Virus record (IMG/VR): IMGVR_UViG_2541047097_000005 | Source: a virus | Taxonomy: Duplodnaviria > Heunggongvirae > Uroviricota > Caudoviricetes | Direction: 5' to 3' (one strand) | DNA length: 4,283 nt | Shown: piece by piece, positions 1 through 4,283 of the stretch | Layout of the letters: each line of letters begins with the position of its first letter | Position numbering within the stretch: position 1 is the stretch's first letter | The notes under the pieces: model-generated | Told to the model about the DNA's origin: nothing | Databases searched by the model: none | The model's input: the letters and a program-made list of their open reading frames with translations, nothing else | Translations under genes and position numbers: made by a program

Positions 1-1
1 C

Positions 2-595
2 GTGAAAACGGATTTATCAGCAACGGAAACGGCCTGGAAGCTGTGGGAACTTATGGGGGAGGTGTATTCGAACCGCTGGACCCAGAAGAACGGGGCTGCG
101 CCGTCGAAGCTCTGGATTGCTCAGATTGGCGCGATGACTGAACAGCAAATCCGGCAGGTCTGCCGTCAGTGCATGGACCGCTGCCGGGCGGGTGAAACGT
201 GGCCTCCGGACCTGGCTGAGTTTGTGGCGTTGATTTCGGAGAGCGGGGCAAATCCATTTGGCCTGACGGTGGATGCCGTGATGGAGGAGTACCGTCGCTG
301 GAGGAATGAATCCTGGCGGTACGACGGGAGTGATAAATACCCGTGGCCACAGCCGGTGCTGTACCACATTTGCCTCGAGATGCGTGACAGAGGGATTGAG
401 CGGCAGATGACGGAAGGTGAGTTAAAACGACTTGCAGAACGGCAACTGACGAAATGGGCAAAGCAAGTTGGTAACGGGATGAGTATTCCCCCGATCCGGA
501 GACAACTCGCATCGCCGAAGTGCCCGCAAGGGCCAACGCCAATTGAATTACTGAAACAGGAATACGAGCGCCGGAAGGCGGCTGGTTTTGTTTGA
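2..595 (+). CDS. Replication protein P-like (lambda P family, DnaB-helicase loader); 5' end may lie upstream of the window
   Basis: ORF runs from nt 2 (GTG) to TGA at 593-595. The translated C-terminal two thirds resemble lambda P as I remember it (EFVALISES.., YPWPQPVLYHICLEMRDRG, ELKRLAERQLTKWAKQV versus lambda P QFVAWCREE.., YPWKSNAHYWLVTNLYQNM, ELRRKAADELVHMTARI). Lambda P is about 233 aa and this ORF is 197 aa, so the true start is probably upstream. Confidence 0.8.
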   Translation: MKTDLSATETAWKLWELMGEVYSNRWTQKNGAAPSKLWIAQIGAMTEQQIRQVCRQCMDRCRAGETWPPDLAEFVALISESGANPFGLTVDAVMEEYRRWRNESWRYDGSDKYPWPQPVLYHICLEMRDRGIERQMTEGELKRLAERQLTKWAKQVGNGMSIPPIRRQLASPKCPQGPTPIELLKQEYERRKAAGFV

Positions 596-628
596 ATCTG
601 AGAAACGATTTTGTCGGAGGAAATTTTA

Positions 629-1345
629 ATGGAAACCGTATCTGACGCACTGAAAGCACTGAAAAGAGCCTCTTCACATGTGGTGGCAGCTCGCCTTGGA
701 ATTAGTCGTGAAGAGGCTGTCAACGAACTGTGGAAACTGAAACGCCGTGGAGAAGCGGATAACAAGGGGGCGATATGGTGGCTGACTCAGGCTGGTGAAA
801 GTGAACCGGTGTCACCGGTACCGAAAGTGACGGCGCAAATGCTGACAGAGGCGATTGAACAACATGGCCCACAAACGGCGGATGAACTGGCATTGATGTT
901 CGGAATTACCTCCCGCCGGGCGAATTCATCGCTGGCAATGGCAATCAGCAAAGGGTGTCTGATTCGCGTGAATCAGGATGGTAAATTTCGTTACTGCATA
1001 CCGGGCGTTGATTTACCGGCAGAGCCGAAAGCAGCATCCGTAGCTGAAACGGAGGGTAAAGCCCTTCCTCAGCCAGCTGGTGTTGCGTTACCAGTCCAGG
1101 AAACGGCTGCACAGGAAGAAATTAAAACAGAAGCGGTGGAGGACATTGTGAAGTTGCAGCAATCGTTCACTGAAGCGAAAGCAGATGACCTGATTCTACC
1201 ATCGCTGCATGTGGCTAACCGCGAGCTGCGCCGGGCGAAAAGTAATGTTCAGAAGTGGGAGCGAGTCTGTGCTGCGCTACGGGAACTGAACAAACACAGG
1301 GATATTCTCCGGGATATTACCGCCACCAGAGAGCAGCAGCGGTGA
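629..1345 (+). CDS. Prophage protein, DUF1627-like, with an N-terminal winged-helix-like segment; function unknown
   Basis: ORF ends at TGA 1343-1345. I prefer ATG 629 (METVSD..), which has GGAGG at 616-620 eight nt upstream, over the TTG at 611 used in the ORF track. N-terminus ([23 protein letters not shown]) looks like a small DNA-binding/winged-helix fold; the central part is Ala/Glu/Pro-rich and linker-like. Family call is from memory of prophage annotations next to P genes, not verified. Confidence 0.7.
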
Positions 1346-1659
1346 GTGGCTGGAAGAAGTGGCGCTGGGCTGAAATCCTGATACTCCGGCAGTGTGCGGG
1401 AACGATGAGAGTCGAAAGCATCGGTTATCTGATTGGCCGTAGTGAGTCAGCCGTCAGGACGAAAGCGCGGGAACTGGGTATCAGCATGATGTTACGGGGT
1501 GATTATCACCAGTCAGCCAAATGTTCACAGCGTGATATTGAGCTGGCGTGGCAACTGCATCAGCGTGGTGTACCCCGACGGGAAATTGCCGAAAAGTTTG
1601 GGATGAAGTTGGGCGCAGTGAATAACTACGTTTATTTCGACAGGAGGGTTCAGGAGTGA
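1342..1659 (+). CDS. Small protein with two tandem helix-turn-helix-like repeats (putative DNA-binding regulator)
   Basis: GTG at 1342-1344 overlaps the upstream stop (GTGA, 1342-1345). Two internally similar segments: [38 protein letters not shown] and [29 protein letters not shown], each resembling sigma-70 region 4 / LuxR-type HTH (xxEIAxxxGxSxxAVxx). Alternative start ATG 1404 would remove the first helix. Stop TGA 1657-1659. Confidence 0.65.
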
Positions 1660-1958
1660 GGGTGAGGGTTTATATCGCCGGTCCGATGACGGGATATGAA
1701 AATTTTAACCGCGAGGCATTTCACAAAACGGAAGAGGTGCTGAAACGGGAAGGGCATACCGTTTTAAACCCGGCAGTACTTCCGGACGGGCTGACTCAGC
1801 CACACTACATGGATATTTGCATGGCAATGCTCCGTTGCGTGGATGCGGTTTACATGCTGAAAGGCTGGCAGCAGTCGGCAGGTGCAGGGGCTGAGCTGGC
1901 ACTGGAGGAGAAACCGGGCCATGCGGTGATTTTTCAGGAGGTGGGCAGTGAATATTGA
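1656..1958 (+). CDS. DUF4406 family protein (nucleoside 2-deoxyribosyltransferase-like fold)
   Basis: GTG at 1656 (or 1662) overlaps the upstream stop, with CAGGAG at 1651-1656. N-terminal motif VYIAGPMTG followed by ..VLNP.. and a C-terminal acidic EL..E segment is typical of the small phage DUF4406 / deoxyribosyltransferase-like Rossmann proteins. Stop TGA 1956-1958. Confidence 0.8.
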   Translation: MRVRVYIAGPMTGYENFNREAFHKTEEVLKREGHTVLNPAVLPDGLTQPHYMDICMAMLRCVDAVYMLKGWQQSAGAGAELALEEKPGHAVIFQEVGSEY

Positions 1959-2265
1959 CCCGGCGATAACGATTGATATGGCCCTGAACGCCGGCCTGGC
2001 ACTTCTTGGTTATTTCTACATTATGTTCTGCAGCGGACGATGGCTGTCACTGTTGTTCATGAAAAAATGGAATAAACGCCGTAAGCAGGAGCAACGCCAG
2101 AAGGCAATGGATGCATTTTTCGAAGCCTTCGGAATTGACGGCATGGAACCAGGGGATCCAGCTCGCGCAATCAGCAGAGGGGGTGTAGTAATCCTTGTAT
2201 ATCGGAGTGAAGAGAAAAATGACGATCACAAAACAACGTGTAGAAGAAATCATATCCCGCATTGA
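1948..2265 (+). CDS. Small membrane protein (one predicted transmembrane helix followed by a basic stretch), function unknown
   Basis: GTG at 1948 with a strong SD AGGAGGTGG at 1936-1944; overlaps the DUF4406 stop by 11 nt. Hydrophobic segment ITIDMALNAGLALLGYFYIMFCSGRWLSLLF followed by KKWNKRRKQEQRQK. The last 47 nt overlap the next ORF, so the C-terminal tail may be run-on. Confidence 0.55.
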   Translation: MNIDPAITIDMALNAGLALLGYFYIMFCSGRWLSLLFMKKWNKRRKQEQRQKAMDAFFEAFGIDGMEPGDPARAISRGGVVILVYRSEEKNDDHKTTCRRNHIPH

Positions 2266-2536
2266 AATGTATGGACATGGTGCAGGGTATATCGCAGACG
2301 AGGTTAATGATCTGGCTATACTGGCGCTGAATTTATCAAATATCGCGAACCTGAAGCGATACGAGCTTGATATGGGAGGTTGCGACTCGTGCGGTCAGGA
2401 TTGTGGCGCTGATATGACTGAAGATCCTGATGGTGATTATGTCCTGTTTGATGACGTGGTTAAGTTGTTTGAATTTGATACAACCACTCAAAAGTTAGAA
2501 ATCCCGGCAAAGGAGGCAGCCAGTGGGCAAGATTGA
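2219..2536 (+). CDS. Hypothetical acidic protein (105 aa), function unknown
   Basis: ATG at 2219 preceded by GGAG (2204-2207) and GAAGAG (2208-2213); the ORF track's TTG at 2195 is less likely. Product is acidic with a Cys cluster (CDSCGQDCG). Stop TGA 2534-2536 overlaps the next start. Confidence 0.6.
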   Translation: MTITKQRVEEIISRIEMYGHGAGYIADEVNDLAILALNLSNIANLKRYELDMGGCDSCGQDCGADMTEDPDGDYVLFDDVVKLFEFDTTTQKLEIPAKEAASGQD

Positions 2537-2960
2537 CTATCAGGCACTGCGTGAGGCAGCACAAAACTATCAATCGACGCTGGCGTGGTATCAGGCTACC
2601 CCGGACAGCCCAAATGCTGAACGGGATTGTGATGCGGCTCTTGCTGCGTTTAAGCGTCACATCCGTCATCGGGAAGCGGATATTATCGCTGATTTGCTGG
2701 ATGGACTGGAAGAAGCAAAATCACAACTCAACGAGCAGCGTGAGTATTACGAAGGCGTTATCTCTGATGGGAGCAAGCGTATTGCTGAACTGGAAGCGCG
2801 GGAAGTTCAATTACCGACTCGCTACGACCTTCGATATGGACACCCGATAAATGCAGATGAGCGACATGTCATGATACCTAAAGAAAATGGCAGTTGGCTT
2901 TACCTGATTGACCTAGAACACGCATTACGCGTCGCTGGCATTCGCATCAAAGGAGAGTGA
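2523..2960 (+). CDS. Ead/Ea22-like family prophage protein (putative)
   Basis: GTG at 2523 with SD AAGGAGG at 2510-2516, overlapping the upstream stop. Motifs IDYQALREAAQ at the N-terminus and KRIAELEAREV in a central coiled-coil-like stretch match my recollection of E. coli prophage Ea22-like proteins; family assignment unverified. Stop TGA 2958-2960. Confidence 0.7.
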   Translation: MGKIDYQALREAAQNYQSTLAWYQATPDSPNAERDCDAALAAFKRHIRHREADIIADLLDGLEEAKSQLNEQREYYEGVISDGSKRIAELEAREVQLPTRYDLRYGHPINADERHVMIPKENGSWLYLIDLEHALRVAGIRIKGE

Positions 2961-2961
2961 G

Positions 2962-3153
2962 ATGAACGGACAAATATCAATTGTTCGACCAGGAGCATGT
3001 GACGATCGCGAAATACGAATGATTATTCGTCTGGCGATGGGGAAAACAATAACTGCTCTCATTACTCCAGAAAATCTCGCATTAGCATTAACAGGAAAGT
3101 CAGACATGCCAGTAGAGCTAAAGCTGCGAAATGTTGAGATTAAGGTGAAATAG
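2962..3153 (+). CDS. Small hypothetical protein (63 aa)
   Basis: ATG 2962 with SD AGGAG at 2951-2955 (6-nt spacing), placed 1 nt after the upstream stop. Stop TAG 3151-3153. No recognisable motif. Confidence 0.5.
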   Translation: MNGQISIVRPGACDDREIRMIIRLAMGKTITALITPENLALALTGKSDMPVELKLRNVEIKVK

Positions 3154-3155
3154 CT

Positions 3156-3713
3156 ATGACCACTATTACCAAAGATCGACTGCTGACAATCCAGCATTGG
3201 CGCGAAACATACGGACCGGGTAGCAACGTTGTGCTTCCAGCAGAAGAAGCGGAAGAGCTGGCACGGATTGCGCTGGCATCACTGGCAGCAGTATCGGATG
3301 AACGAGCAGCCTATGAATTATTTATGGAGAAGCGTTTCGGAGAATCTGTAGATCGCCGCAGAGCAAAAAATGGCGATAGAGAATACATGGCATGGGATAT
3401 GGCGCTTGGCTGGATTATCTGGTGTCACCGCGCCGCCATGCTTCAGGCTGGAAACTTTCGGGAAAATAAGGGTTCGTCAACCAATAATTTTCGGATAATC
3501 TCGGAAACGTCAACCAACTCTCCGGCAATCCCTGATGAGGTGTTGTCCGCAATCCTGAAGGTCGCCAGGCTTCGTGCAGATTTCGATGCTTCTGAAGTGG
3601 ACAGGCGAGGTATCGGTAGTTGTCTGGATGAGGCCGAGCAAGAACTTATCGTTACCATTAACGAATACGCCAGTCAGATCGCAGTAGAAGCGACACAGGG
3701 GGAGAACCAATGA
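3156..3713 (+). CDS. Hypothetical prophage protein (185 aa), function unknown
   Basis: ATG 3156 with AAGGTGA at 3143-3149, 2 nt after the upstream stop. The N-terminus (LTIQHWRETYGPGSNVVLPAEEAEELARIALASLAAV) resembles N-termini I associate with prophage Ea22-like/early-left proteins, but I cannot assign a family. Stop TGA 3711-3713. Confidence 0.7.
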   Translation: MTTITKDRLLTIQHWRETYGPGSNVVLPAEEAEELARIALASLAAVSDERAAYELFMEKRFGESVDRRRAKNGDREYMAWDMALGWIIWCHRAAMLQAGNFRENKGSSTNNFRIISETSTNSPAIPDEVLSAILKVARLRADFDASEVDRRGIGSCLDEAEQELIVTINEYASQIAVEATQGENQ

Positions 3714-3787
3714 GCCGGCCAGATGCATTTGCAGGCGTTGCTATAGCTATTGCTTTTCTAGTATATGTTATTTGTCGGTGGGGGTAA
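3710..3787 (+). CDS. Candidate mini-ORF, 25-aa hydrophobic peptide (MSRPDAFAGVAIAIAFLVYVICRWG)
   Basis: ATG 3710 overlaps the upstream TGA (ATGA) and has GGGGAG at 3698-3703 with 6-nt spacing. The 16-residue hydrophobic core could span a membrane. Stop TAA 3785-3787. Too short for the ORF track. Confidence 0.3.
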   Translation: MSRPDAFAGVAIAIAFLVYVICRWG

Positions 3788-3822
3788 AAACGTTCGCCGG
3801 GATTCACACCAAGGGAGGGAAT

Positions 3823-3927
3823 ATGTCGGATGATATTTCACTGGTAATGGAAGGCGCTCTGGCTGTTATTGCTGTTGTGGGTGTTTACTGCCTGGTTGTG
3901 TTTTTGATGGAGCGCCTGGGGAACTGA
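3823..3927 (+). CDS. Candidate small transmembrane protein, 34 aa (MSDDISLVMEGALAVIAVVGVYCLVVFLMERLGN)
   Basis: ATG 3823 preceded by a near-consensus SD AAGGGAGGG at 3811-3819. Single roughly 21-residue hydrophobic helix with a charged C-terminus (ERLGN). Stop TGA 3925-3927. Too short for the ORF track. Confidence 0.45.
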   Translation: MSDDISLVMEGALAVIAVVGVYCLVVFLMERLGN

Positions 3928-3937
3928 ATTCATTCCG

Positions 3938-3953
3938 TATGGGAATTCCCATA
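3938..3953. repeat. 16-bp perfect palindrome TATGGGAATTCCCATA
   Basis: Read directly; it is its own reverse complement. Sits between the 34-aa ORF stop and the predicted hok promoter -35. Confidence 0.9.
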
Positions 3954-3967
3954 TCGGGCAAAACGGT

Positions 3968-3995
3968 TTGCTGTAAAGCGAGAGTTAAGTAGAAT
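3968..3995 (+). promoter_or_regulatory. Predicted sigma-70 promoter for the hok-type mRNA
   Basis: -35 TTGCTG (3968-3973), 16-nt spacer, -10 TAGAAT (3990-3995). The predicted start near 4002-4004 would give an mRNA 5' end GGGTGCTTGAGGCTGTCTGCCTC, matching the remembered 5' end of plasmid R1 hok mRNA (GGCGCUUGAGGCUUUCUGCCUC). Confidence 0.45.
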
Positions 3996-4013
3996 TGCTG
4001 CGGGTGCTTGAGG

Positions 4014-4049
4014 CTGTCTGCCTCGGGCATGCCACCGTAAGGCAGACAG
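4014..4049 (+). promoter_or_regulatory. hok mRNA leader stem-loop (9-bp perfect stem, 18-nt loop)
   Basis: CTGTCTGCC (4014-4022) pairs perfectly with GGCAGACAG (4041-4049). The loop contains the palindromic octamer GGCATGCC (4026-4033). Position and sequence parallel the 5' structured element of R1 hok mRNA. Confidence 0.55.
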
Positions 4050-4057
4050 AGAAAAGC

Positions 4058-4122
4058 CCCAGTTAACATTACGCGTCCTGCAAGACGCTTAACATTAATC
4101 TGAGGCCCAATCTATGCTTCAC
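4058..4122 (-). ncRNA. sok: Predicted Sok-like antisense RNA (type I antitoxin); ends approximate
   Basis: Placed by analogy with R1 hok/sok, where Sok is antisense to the leader and mok start region. Covers the mok-like ATG at 4114 and the hairpin at 4073-4088. Start is inferred from the minus-strand promoter at 4129-4157. The 3' end is guessed from the stretch whose antisense reads GGGGCTTTTCTCTGTCTGCC, similar to R1 GGGGCUAUCUUCUUUCUGCC. Confidence 0.4.
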
Positions 4123-4128
4123 AAACGT

Positions 4129-4157
4129 AGGTTAGCCTCTTACGCGCCGAAAGGCAA
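4129..4157 (-). promoter_or_regulatory. Predicted promoter for the Sok-like antisense RNA
   Basis: On the minus strand: -35 TTGCCT (complement of 4152-4157), 17-nt spacer, -10 TAACCT (complement of 4129-4134). Same position and near-identical spacer as the R1 sok promoter I recall (TTGCGC, 17 nt, TATCCT). The -10 is a weak match to TATAAT. Confidence 0.4.
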
Positions 4158-4170
4158 GGAGAAGCAGGTT

Positions 4171-4283
4171 ATGAAGCAGCAAAAGGCGATGTTAATCGCC
4201 CTGATCGTCATCTGTTTAACCGTCATAGTGACGGCACTGGTAACGAGGAAAGACCTCTGCGAGGTACGAATCCGAACCGGCCA
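4171..4283 (+). CDS. hok: Hok/Gef family type I toxin (small membrane-depolarising peptide), 3' end truncated by the window
   Basis: ATG 4171 with SD AAGGAG at 4156-4161. Translation MKQQKAMLIALIVICLTVIVTALVTRKDLCEVRIRTGQ.. matches the Hok/Gef family and, from memory, is closest to chromosomal HokD/RelF-type sequences. No stop before the window end. Confidence 0.9.
   Translation, partial: MKQQKAMLIALIVICLTVIVTALVTRKDLCEVRIRTG

What the first reader, a model, noticed from the sequence alone, without database searches (positions are those of the whole stretch)
3965..4283. Apparently complete hok/sok-type type I toxin-antitoxin locus at the right edge of the prophage accessory region
The sequence shows a Hok/Gef-type toxin ORF with its SD, a leader whose 5' end and 9-bp stem-loop mirror R1 hok mRNA, and a minus-strand promoter positioned to make an antisense Sok-like RNA across the leader. 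Chromosomal and prophage hok copies are often inactivated, but here both promoters and the toxin start look intact. An intact locus could act as a prophage addiction or abortive-infection-like module. The 3' end of hok and the downstream fold-back element are outside the window, so completeness cannot be confirmed.
Basis: partly seen in the sequence, partly recalled or inferred. Interest (0 to 1): 0.55.

Follow-up and report, generated by a model that had tools for sequence, protein, structure and literature searches.

The report
Intact prophage hokD/sok toxin-antitoxin locus

Summary
Window 3967-4283 holds the promoter, full leader and first 37 codons of a Hok/Gef toxin gene, plus an in-frame mok ORF and a minus-strand Sok antisense gene.

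- **Family match:** Rfam RF01794 matches 4002-4176 (114.9 bits, E 1.4e-26). Pfam HOK_GEF scores 81.6 bits.
- **Why the gene is cut:** The window seems to be a whole short draft contig. Contigs with 0-1 mismatch continue to a hok stop, giving a 51-aa protein identical to E. coli K-12 HokD. They also carry a 3' fold-back element and a terminator.
- **RNA switch:** Folding the full transcript pairs its 5' end with the 3' element. Deleting that element in silico gives the switch described for plasmid R1.
- **Sok promoter:** The -10 TAACCT is the hexamer whose mutation abolished sokW function in phage Sp5/933W, which is 93% identical. It is an active allele.
- **Prevalence:** 4726 of 5426 complete E. 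coli genomes have a match. NCBI's PGAP annotation names the gene hokD.

Verdict: already known, low interest. One mildly interesting side observation is that the Sok recognition tail is the hypervariable spot of the locus among 66 phage copies.

The parts
3967..3995 (+). hok promoter: -35 TTTGCT (3967-3972), 17-nt spacer, -10 TAGAAT (3990-3995)
   Evidence: Read from the sequence. TAGAAT and a TT(T/G)GC -35 at the same spacing persist in nearly all 77 phage copies even where the upstream DNA is unrelated. It falls below the threshold of the generic consensus scan.
4002..4013 (+). hok mRNA 5' end, the tac element GGGUGCUUGAGG
   Evidence: It is the start of the Rfam RF01794 match. It is invariant in 66 loci and 100% paired with the 3' fbi box. 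It pairs with fbi in the full-length MFE fold.
4014..4049 (+). 5' stem-loop of the leader (10 + 3 base pairs)
   Evidence: There is a compensatory G-C/A-U change at 4016/4047 relative to 933W and most phage copies.
4054..4062 (+). ucb, the anti-SD of mok (AAGCCCCAG)
   Evidence: It pairs with the mok SD in the full-length fold and with tac after 3' truncation. The element is defined for R1 in PMC9841398.
4052..4122 (-). Sok antisense RNA, about 71 nt (14-nt single-stranded 5' tail, long hairpin, U tail)
   Evidence: Coordinates are transferred from the sokW misc_RNA of phage 933W (alignment). Fold energy is -29.2 kcal/mol, z -5.2. The transcript itself was not observed here.
4102..4105 (+). 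mok Shine-Dalgarno GAGG
   Evidence: It lies 8 nt upstream of the ATG at 4114 and is invariant in 66 loci. It is covered by Sok.
4114..4283 (+). mok reading frame, in frame with hok (MLHKRRLASYAPKGKEKQV + Hok), cut by the window end
   Evidence: The same in-frame arrangement is annotated as mokW in 933W and as mokC in K-12.
4109..4133 (+). Predicted hairpin around the mok start, the presumed Sok target (sokT)
   Evidence: It overlaps the most variable stretch of the locus, 4106-4135.
4129..4157 (-). sok promoter: -35 TTGCCT (4157->4152), 17-nt spacer, -10 TAACCT (4134->4129)
   Evidence: Both hexamers are identical to those of sokW. Mutating that -10 abolished antitoxin activity in Takada 2021. 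This is the majority allele among phage copies.
4135..4139 (+). dcb (GCCUC), which pairs with the mok SD after 3' truncation
   Evidence: expected SDmok-dcb pairs rise from 0.12 to about 4.8. R1 definition.
4156..4161 (+). hok Shine-Dalgarno AAGGAG, overlapping the sok -35
4171..4283 (+). hok (HokD-type) coding sequence, codons 1-37 of 51, cut by the end of the window/contig
   Evidence: Pfam HOK_GEF 81.6 bits and PHROG 251 'MokW-like host killing' 114.7 bits were scored on the completed protein. The completion is identical in L001, L006, L007, L008 and L011.

Best explanation
This is the 5' three-quarters of an intact hokD-type hok/mok/sok type I toxin-antitoxin module. It lies in the nin-like region of a lambdoid E. 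coli prophage, between the replication genes and the DUF968/RusA/Q genes.

Proposed mechanism, inferred from plasmid R1 hok/sok and from hokW/sokW:
1. A weak promoter (-10 TAGAAT) makes a stable mRNA of about 390-420 nt starting near 4002.
2. In the full-length RNA the 5' tac box pairs with the 3' fbi box, which lies just beyond the window. The mok ribosome-binding site is then held by the upstream box ucb, so nothing is translated and Sok cannot bind.
3. Slow 3' trimming removes fbi. Tac then pairs with ucb, and the mok start region is exposed.
4. While the locus is transcribed, the short-lived 71-nt Sok RNA (made from the opposite strand, start near 4122) pairs with the mok start region. This blocks mok translation, and therefore the coupled hok translation, and the duplex is degraded.
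5. When Sok synthesis stops, Mok/Hok are made and the 51-aa Hok peptide damages the inner membrane.

By analogy with hokW/sokW, the most likely trigger in this setting is prophage induction, with Hok speeding lysis and phage release. Steps 1-3 are supported here by sequence and folding. Steps 4-5 and the biological role are inferred from homologs.
For: **Family and proteins**
- Rfam RF01794: 114.9 bits, E 1.4e-26 at 4002-4176. The same model hits 933W hokW (113.5 bits) and an R1-type hok (87.2 bits), but not the truncated K-12-type hokD.
- Pfam HOK_GEF 81.6 bits; PHROG 251 114.7 bits.

**Homolog and extension**
- 93.2% nucleotide identity to the 933W mokW/hokW/sokW locus. That locus was shown to be a functional toxin plus RNA antitoxin.
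- The sok -10 and -35 are identical to sokW, and that -10 was validated by mutation.
- Contigs with 0-1 mismatch give a complete 51-aa Hok, an fbi box and a terminator. The protein is identical to K-12 HokD, WP_000813254.1.

**RNA folding**
- The full-length fold has 12 tac-fbi pairs and z -6.2.
- Truncating to 368 nt or less switches expected pairs as follows: tac-fbi 11.9 to 0; tac-ucb 0 to 6.9; ucb-SDmok 5.9 to 0.3; SDmok-dcb 0.1 to 4.8. This is the R1 model as summarised in PMC9841398.
- In 65 distinct phage or prophage copies, 95% of cells in the proposed helices pair, against 33-44% for slid controls. Tac-fbi pairs in 100%.
- The Sok fold has z -5.2.
Against: - No transcript, toxicity or antitoxin activity was measured for this copy.
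- The last 14 codons, the fbi box and the terminator are not in the window. They are taken from near-identical contigs, and the one 100%-identical contig (L011) differs from the others at 5 positions in the 3' UTR.
- Both promoters are weak matches to the sigma-70 consensus and were not flagged by the generic scan.
- Within this closely related set, tac-fbi never covaries: 10 of 12 pairs are invariant. Conservation supports the helix, but covariation does not.
[quoted passage not shown] An intact structure therefore does not guarantee addiction activity.
- The window differs from sokW at 4 positions in or next to the Sok 5' tail.
Confidence: 0.85

Rival explanations
1. The locus is structurally intact but physiologically silent. 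Like the chromosomal hokA/B/C loci tested by Pedersen and Gerdes, it may be transcribed yet never release Hok under natural conditions. It would then persist only as hitch-hiking prophage cargo spread by recombination.
For: [quoted passage not shown] The element is extremely common and multi-copy, with a median of 2 and up to 10 places per genome, which fits a passenger of mosaic prophages. Deleting hokW-sokW had no growth effect without induction.
Against: All regulatory elements are conserved across 65 distinct copies, including invariant tac, SD and ATG signals, while flanking DNA is mosaic. That argues for purifying selection on function. The 93%-identical hokW/sokW does produce Hok on induction and changes lysis timing and phage yield. 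Inactive K-12 copies show obvious lesions such as IS insertion or truncation, which are absent here.
Confidence: 0.2
2. The module mainly serves as an abortive-infection defence. Infection by a lytic phage shuts off host transcription, Sok decays, Hok kills the cell early, and the lysogen population is protected.
For: R1 hok/sok on a high-copy plasmid reduced T4 plating efficiency and plaque size (Pecota and Wood 1996, cited). hok genes are about four-fold enriched in prophages, which often carry defence genes.
Against: There is no match to any PADLOC defence model. hok showed no enrichment next to defence systems in the survey. The R1 effect was modest and seen at high copy number. The only prophage homolog tested promoted its own phage's release rather than blocking phage.
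Confidence: 0.12
3. The module is a prophage addiction (post-segregational killing) system. Cells that lose the prophage by excision or deletion are killed by Hok made from the long-lived mRNA.
For: This is the classical role of R1 hok/sok, and the same RNA architecture is present.
Against: Most carrier genomes hold several closely related copies, and their Sok RNAs share 50-plus identical nucleotides. Those could neutralise the mRNA of a lost copy. Chromosomal loci failed post-segregational killing tests. It has not been demonstrated for any prophage hok locus in the papers read.
Confidence: 0.15

Closest known systems
hokW/mokW/sokW of Stx2 phage 933W / Sakai prophage Sp5 (Plunkett 1999 annotation, AF125520; Takada et al. 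2021, PMC8621323)
   Same: - 93.2% nucleotide identity over window 3960-4283.
- The same layout: promoter, tac, ucb, in-frame mok, Sok on the opposite strand, identical sok -10/-35, identical fbi box.
- The first 43 Hok residues are identical (alignment).
- The setting is a lambdoid prophage.
   Different: - 22 substitutions, concentrated in the loop of the 5' hairpin and in the mok-start/Sok-tail region, with 4 differences at 4107-4120.
- Hok differs at 4 C-terminal residues: TAYEPEE versus VDYESEK (by translating the aligned DNA).
- 933W lacks the terminator hairpin found downstream here.
- The host prophage here is a different mosaic with no stx genes in the related loci examined.
E. coli K-12 hokD (relF) in the Qin cryptic prophage
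   Same: - The Hok protein is identical, WP_000813254.1.
- 98.1% nucleotide identity from the hok SD to the terminator.
- The downstream neighbourhood is the same: a small ORF, then DUF968/ydfU.
   Different: The K-12-type copy matches only from window-equivalent 4157 onward. relBE replaces the promoter, tac, ucb, mok and sok, and Rfam finds no leader there. The window holds the untruncated form.
hok/mok/sok (parB) of plasmid R1, the founding member
   Same: - The same Rfam leader family (87.2 bits for an R1-type copy).
- The same order of tac, ucb, SDmok, dcb/sok promoter, SDhok and fbi.
- A sok promoter at the same position (TTGCGC-17-TATCCT against TTGCCT-17-TAACCT).
- The same predicted full-length/truncated switch.
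   Different: - The Hok proteins share only 42% identity.
- The DNA is too diverged for blastn.
- The R1 5' hairpin loop is 17-18 nt longer.
- It is plasmid-borne with a demonstrated post-segregational killing role.
E. coli K-12 hokC/mokC/sokC (gef)
   Same: An in-frame mok extension, an antisense sokC at the same position, and a very similar leader.
   Different: In K-12, IS186 is inserted about 20 bp after the hokC stop and removes fbi. No insertion is present in the contigs that continue this window.

Membership tests
hok/sok (Hok/Gef) type I toxin-antitoxin family | The toxin is a membrane peptide of about 50 aa belonging to the Hok/Gef family | tested here: met
   Pfam PF01848 scores 81.6 bits against a cut-off of 22, and PHROG 251 scores 114.7 bits. 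37 of the 51 residues are in the window. The rest come from contigs with 0-1 mismatch.
hok/sok (Hok/Gef) type I toxin-antitoxin family | The hok mRNA leader has the family's conserved sequence and structure | tested here: met
   Rfam RF01794 matches the full model length with 114.9 bits against a gathering score of 59.
hok/sok (Hok/Gef) type I toxin-antitoxin family | An upstream overlapping mok reading frame with its own SD | tested here: met
   ATG at 4114 with SD GAGG at 4102-4105, open and in frame into hok. This is the same arrangement as the annotated mokW and mokC. Translational coupling itself cannot be tested here.
hok/sok (Hok/Gef) type I toxin-antitoxin family | A cis-encoded antisense RNA (Sok) with its own promoter, complementary to the mok translation-initiation region | tested here: met
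   Tested at sequence level only. The -35/-10 hexamers are identical to the mutationally validated sokW promoter. The predicted 71-nt RNA covers the mok SD and ATG and folds as a tail plus hairpin plus U-run. Expression was not observed.
hok/sok (Hok/Gef) type I toxin-antitoxin family | Long-range 5'-3' pairing (tac/fbi) that locks the full-length mRNA | tested here: met
   There are 12 pairs in the MFE fold and 11.9 expected pairs in the ensemble. Pairing is 100% in 65 distinct homologs. The fbi box lies outside the window, so this was tested on the extension from L001/L006.
hok/sok (Hok/Gef) type I toxin-antitoxin family | Refolding after 3' processing (tac/ucb and SDmok/dcb) | tested here: met
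   Tested in silico only. The switch appears in pair probabilities once 56 nt or more are removed from the 3' end, as in the R1 model. Real processing cannot be tested here.
hok/sok (Hok/Gef) type I toxin-antitoxin family | Hok is toxic and Sok neutralises it | not testable with these tools
   Literature only. HokD was toxic as a control in the 2025 survey. hokW/sokW was shown to be a toxin plus RNA antitoxin.
Catalogued anti-phage defence / abortive infection systems | The protein matches a model of a known or candidate defence system | tested here: not met
   PADLOC-DB gives no hit for Hok or Mok-Hok at E <= 0.01.
Plasmid-type post-segregational killing (addiction) module | Loss of the element kills the cell | not testable with these tools
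   This needs curing experiments. Chromosomal hok loci tested earlier failed this test.

The most novel reading that the evidence does not exclude
The Sok 5' recognition tail and the matching mok-start loop (window about 4106-4135) form a diversifying specificity cassette. Among 66 hokD-type phage and prophage loci, all but the 933W hokW copy encode identical Hok. In this set the stretch has about six times the mean column entropy of the locus, with 13 haplotypes in 15 columns. On this reading, co-resident prophage copies (up to 10 per genome) would carry mutually orthogonal antitoxins. Each prophage would then keep private control of its own killer, analogous to incompatibility determinants of antisense-controlled plasmids.
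Probability: 0.2. Interest if true: 0.4.

Novelty: already known. Interest (0 to 1): 0.1.

Why it matters
It adds little new knowledge. The locus belongs to one of the best-studied RNA-regulated killer families. It is annotated automatically as hokD, is present in most E. coli genomes, and has a 93%-identical homolog that was characterised experimentally in 2021.

Its practical value is for annotation:
- This prophage carries the complete form of the module (promoter, mok, sok, fbi) rather than the truncated K-12 relBE-hokD form.
- The sok gene and the mok frame are missing from the RefSeq (PGAP) records examined.
- Rfam's 'sok' hit is on the hok-sense strand, so it could be misannotated.

If the hypervariable Sok tail proved to be a specificity determinant, it would bear on how many near-identical toxin-antitoxin copies coexist in EHEC genomes.

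Tried and rejected
- **Consensus promoter scan.** It flagged neither the hok nor the sok promoter. Its only hit was TTAACA-18-TATGCT at window 4089-4118, across the mok start. I treat that as spurious, because its -10 overlaps the variable stretch (from 4106).
- **Finding the window in complete E. coli genomes.** The best match covers 96% at 99.1%. The window is a mosaic not present as such in that collection. An exact-protein look-up was needed to find the source-like contigs.
- **DNA search for R1 hok/sok.** Distant blastn did not reach it. I recovered an R1-type copy by tblastn with the R1 Hok sequence recalled from memory, which matched at 100% in thousands of plasmids. The copy used (L004) differs from my recollection of R1 by an indel in mok, so I call it 'R1-type'.
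- **My first assignment of ucb/dcb.** I placed them from memory at 4135-4145 paired with 4365-4373, which was wrong. PMC9841398 places ucb upstream of the mok SD and dcb at the sok promoter. Re-analysis then agreed with the model.
- **Covariation test.** The set is too closely related, so tac-fbi is invariant. The result shows conservation, not covariation.
- **Test of the orthogonality idea within genomes.** Only two genomes contributed two loci each among the 80 IMG/VR loci. One pair is identical and one differs, so nothing can be concluded.
- **PADLOC.** No match.
- **NCBIfam.** Only sub-threshold Hok-family hits.
- **Weak Rfam ceN48 hit.** E = 1, dismissed as chance.

Full report
**What is in the sequence**

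Reading window 3960-4283 gives the following, in order:
- a promoter-like pair, TTTGCT (3967-3972), 17 nt, TAGAAT (3990-3995);
- GGGTGCTTGAGG at 4002;
- a hairpin of 10 + 3 base pairs (4014-4026 with 4035-4049);
- AAAAGCCCC at 4052-4060;
- a long imperfect hairpin at 4056-4106;
- GAGG (4102-4105) followed 8 nt later by an ATG at 4114;
- AAGGAG (4156-4161) followed by an ATG at 4171.

The 4171 frame reads MKQQKAMLIALIVICLTVIVTALVTRKDLCEVRIRTG up to the window end. The 4114 ATG is in the same frame and adds MLHKRRLASYAPKGKEKQV. On the minus strand, TTGCCT (4157->4152), 17 nt, TAACCT (4134->4129) points leftwards across the 4114 start.

**More than chance**

- Rfam's RF01794 model matches 4002-4176 over its full length with 114.9 bits (gathering score 59, E 1.4e-26).
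- The same model hits the annotated hokW leader of phage 933W (113.5 bits) and an R1-type plasmid hok leader (87.2 bits). It finds nothing in the truncated K-12-type hokD locus.
- The completed protein scores 81.6 bits on Pfam HOK_GEF (cut-off 22) and 114.7 bits on PHROG 251, 'MokW-like host killing'.

**Where the window comes from, and the missing 3' end**

No complete E. coli genome in the collection holds the whole window; the best match covers 96% at 99.1%. The window is a mosaic:
- Positions 1-3538 match an O157:H7 SS52 prophage at 99.8%, but 3724-4283 match it at only 94.8%.
- Positions 3267-4283 match a prophage of strain E2865 at 99.6%.

An exact-protein look-up with the 185-aa ORF at 3156-3713 found 18 draft contigs. 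Several of these are only about 4.3 kb long.
- L011 is identical to window 156-4283.
- L006, L007 and L008 each differ from the window by one base.

The window is therefore probably a whole short contig. I infer that it breaks inside hok because hok/sok is a multi-copy repeat (median 2, up to 10 places per genome).

All four contigs, and E2865, continue identically through the rest of hok. The stop is at window-equivalent 4324-4326, giving a 51-aa protein. L006, L007 and E2865 are identical up to 4564. The continuation holds:
- a GC-rich hairpin at 4334-4355;
- CCTCAACGCACCC at 4376-4388;
- a terminator at 4395-4412 followed by a T-run.

The protein is WP_000813254.1, the same accession as HokD in the K-12-type relBE-hokD locus.

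**Surroundings**

Upstream genes in the window are:
- the end of a DnaT-like O-type gene;
- lambda P (134-595);
- DUF1627, DUF4406, DUF4752 and Ead/Ea22-like genes;
- several unknown ORFs.

**How it most likely works**

The R1 model is summarised in PMC9841398:
- The full-length mRNA is locked by a tac/fbi stem, with the mok SD held by ucb.
- 3' trimming allows a tac/ucb stem and an SDmok/dcb stem to form.
- That form is translatable and can be bound by Sok.
- The Sok duplex is cut by RNase III.

I tested the RNA part on the extended sequence.
- The 424-nt transcript (4002 to the terminator) folds at -174.9 kcal/mol (z -6.2). Nucleotides 1-12 pair with CCUCAA-C-GCACCC, and the mok SD region pairs with AGCCCCAG.
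- Progressive 3' truncation changes the expected numbers of pairs as shown below.

| Pairing | Full-length | Truncated to 368 nt or less |
|---|---|---|
| tac-fbi | 11.9 | 0 |
| tac-ucb | 0.0 | 6.8-6.9 |
| ucb-SDmok | 5.9 | 0.2-0.4 |
| SDmok-dcb | 0.1 | 4.7-4.9 (2.2 for the 356-nt cut) |

This reproduces the published switch without any fitting.

The predicted Sok (4122->4052, placed by the 933W sokW annotation) folds into a 14-nt free 5' tail, a long hairpin and a U-run (-29.2 kcal/mol, z -5.2). Its tail and the first part of its stem are complementary to the mok SD and ATG.

**Conservation**

A scan of IMG/VR returned 80 phage contigs encoding the identical HokD. Of these, 77 carry the full leader and 3 are truncated. 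In an alignment of 66 distinct loci, the following are invariant:
- tac;
- the mok SD and ATG;
- most of the hok SD, and the hok ATG.

The sok -10/-35 alleles of the window are the majority ones. The hok -10 TAGAAT and a TT(T/G)GC -35 at fixed spacing persist even where the upstream DNA is unrelated.

Counting the proposed full-length helices gives 95.0% paired cells, against 33-44% for slid controls. Tac-fbi pairs in 100% of sequences. There are 8 pairs with changes on both sides, including 4016/4047, where the window has G-C and most copies have A-U. Because the set is closely related, tac-fbi itself is invariant. This is evidence of conservation, not of covariation.

**Are the promoters and the toxin start active alleles?**

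- The 933W/Sp5 locus is 93.2% identical and has the same sok hexamers, with one spacer difference.
- Takada et al. showed that hokW is toxic and that sokW expressed from its own promoter neutralises it.
- A 'promoter-less' mutant loses that protection. Their primer YO-421 shows the change is TAGGTTA to CCGGCTC, which destroys TAACCT.
- Both RNAs were seen on northern blots.
- HokD itself was toxic when used as a positive control in a 2025 survey.

The lesions that inactivate K-12 copies are absent here:
- K-12-type hokD matches only from window-equivalent 4157 on, with relBE replacing everything upstream.
- K-12 hokC has IS186 inserted in the hairpin after the stop.

**Biological role**

This part is inferred.
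- For hokW/sokW, Sok disappears and Hok appears after RecA-dependent prophage induction. Lysis starts about 40 min earlier and phage yield is about two-fold higher than in the deletion mutant. I take this as the most likely role for this prophage copy.
- Addiction is less likely as the main role. Chromosomal loci failed post-segregational killing tests, and co-resident copies share most of the Sok sequence.
- Abortive-infection defence is possible, given R1 hok/sok against T4. However, it is not supported by PADLOC or by genomic association.

**Comparison with known systems, and novelty**

- The locus meets every family feature that could be tested in silico.
- It is named hokD by PGAP.
- A match occurs in 4726 of 5426 complete E. 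coli genomes, and 3951 of them hold at least 80% of the full 461-bp locus.
- It also occurs on non-mobilizable ~90-130-kb plasmids.
- hok enrichment in prophages has been described.

It is already known, and I score interest at 0.1.

**Side observation**

Within the 66-locus alignment, mean column entropy is 0.141 bit. It reaches 0.838 bit with 13 haplotypes at window 4106-4120, and 0.367 bit with 12 haplotypes at 4121-4135. This stretch is the Sok 5' tail and the mok start loop. Other non-coding segments range from 0.02 to 0.37 bit.

Two readings are possible:
- relaxed constraint on a loop and on the dispensable Mok N-terminus;
- diversification of antitoxin specificity among co-resident copies.

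I could not test this, because only two genomes contributed two loci each. I rate the adaptive reading at about 0.2.

Noticed in passing
window 4106-4135 (alignment A2, columns 106-135): The stretch encoding the Sok 5' tail and the first mok codons is by far the most variable part of the locus among 66 hokD-type phage and prophage copies. Entropy is 0.84 bit with 13 haplotypes in 15 columns, against a locus mean of 0.14. All but the 933W hokW copy encode an identical Hok protein.
   Followed up: partly
window 4002-4176, + strand: Rfam RF01794, named 'sok antitoxin', matches the hok-sense strand from the mRNA 5' end to the hok AUG, both here and in 933W and R1-type loci. An automatic annotation from this hit would put 'sok' on the wrong strand and make it about twice too long.
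   Followed up: yes
whole window (1-4283): The window is probably an entire short draft-assembly contig. Sister contigs of 4272-4386 bp with 0-1 mismatch exist in several assemblies. It is a mosaic of two prophage backgrounds, SS52-like for 1-3538 and E2865-like for 3267-4283. That explains why hok is cut.
   Followed up: yes
window 3938-3953: A perfect 16-bp palindrome, TATGGGAATTCCCATA, lies between the stop of the 34-aa ORF and the hok -35. It recurs upstream of hok in at least 8 of the IMG/VR loci but is absent from 933W. Its function is unknown.
   Followed up: partly
window 3710-3787 and 3823-3927: Two tiny hydrophobic ORFs lie just upstream of hok: a 25-aa one (MSRPDAFAGVAIAIAFLVYVICRWG) and a 34-aa one (MSDDISLVMEGALAVIAVVGVYCLVVFLMERLGN). 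The 34-aa ORF is annotated as hypothetical in RefSeq. 933W has a similar 27-aa ORF at the same place. Neither matches NCBIfam or PHROGs.
   Followed up: partly
L014 ~613 onward and L015 (minus strand), alignment A1 columns ~372-470: An IS186/IS421-family element is inserted at the same point of the GC-rich hairpin just after the hok stop in two unrelated loci, K-12 hokC and the hokD of plasmid p4D31-1. In both it removes the fbi box. This points to a recurrent insertion hot spot that inactivates hok loci.
   Followed up: partly
window-equivalent 4157 (L005 1501; L047, L051): The K-12-type relBE-hokD junction falls exactly at the hok SD. Everything upstream (promoter, tac, mok, sok) is replaced, while the Hok protein stays identical. 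The window shows the untruncated form at the same prophage position.
   Followed up: yes
beyond the window, window-equivalent 4306-4314 (L001 6407-6415): The Tyr47 codon of HokD lies in CUUACGAAC, the predicted loop of a small hairpin. From my own knowledge, it resembles the UACG motif edited by TadA. A 2025 preprint states that hokD mRNA is A-to-I edited to recode a Tyr codon near this position (it says Cys46) to Cys.
   Followed up: no
hit H32, PP818812.1 13189-13513: A record named 'Actinobacillus phage vB_Apl-pPE4' carries this locus at 95.1% identity. That is odd for a Pasteurellaceae phage and suggests an E. coli-derived or mis-assigned phage genome.
   Followed up: no
window 4089-4118, + strand: The only sigma-70-like site reported by the consensus scan is TTAACA-18-TATGCT, across the mok start. 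The homology-supported hok and sok promoters scored below the threshold.
   Followed up: partly
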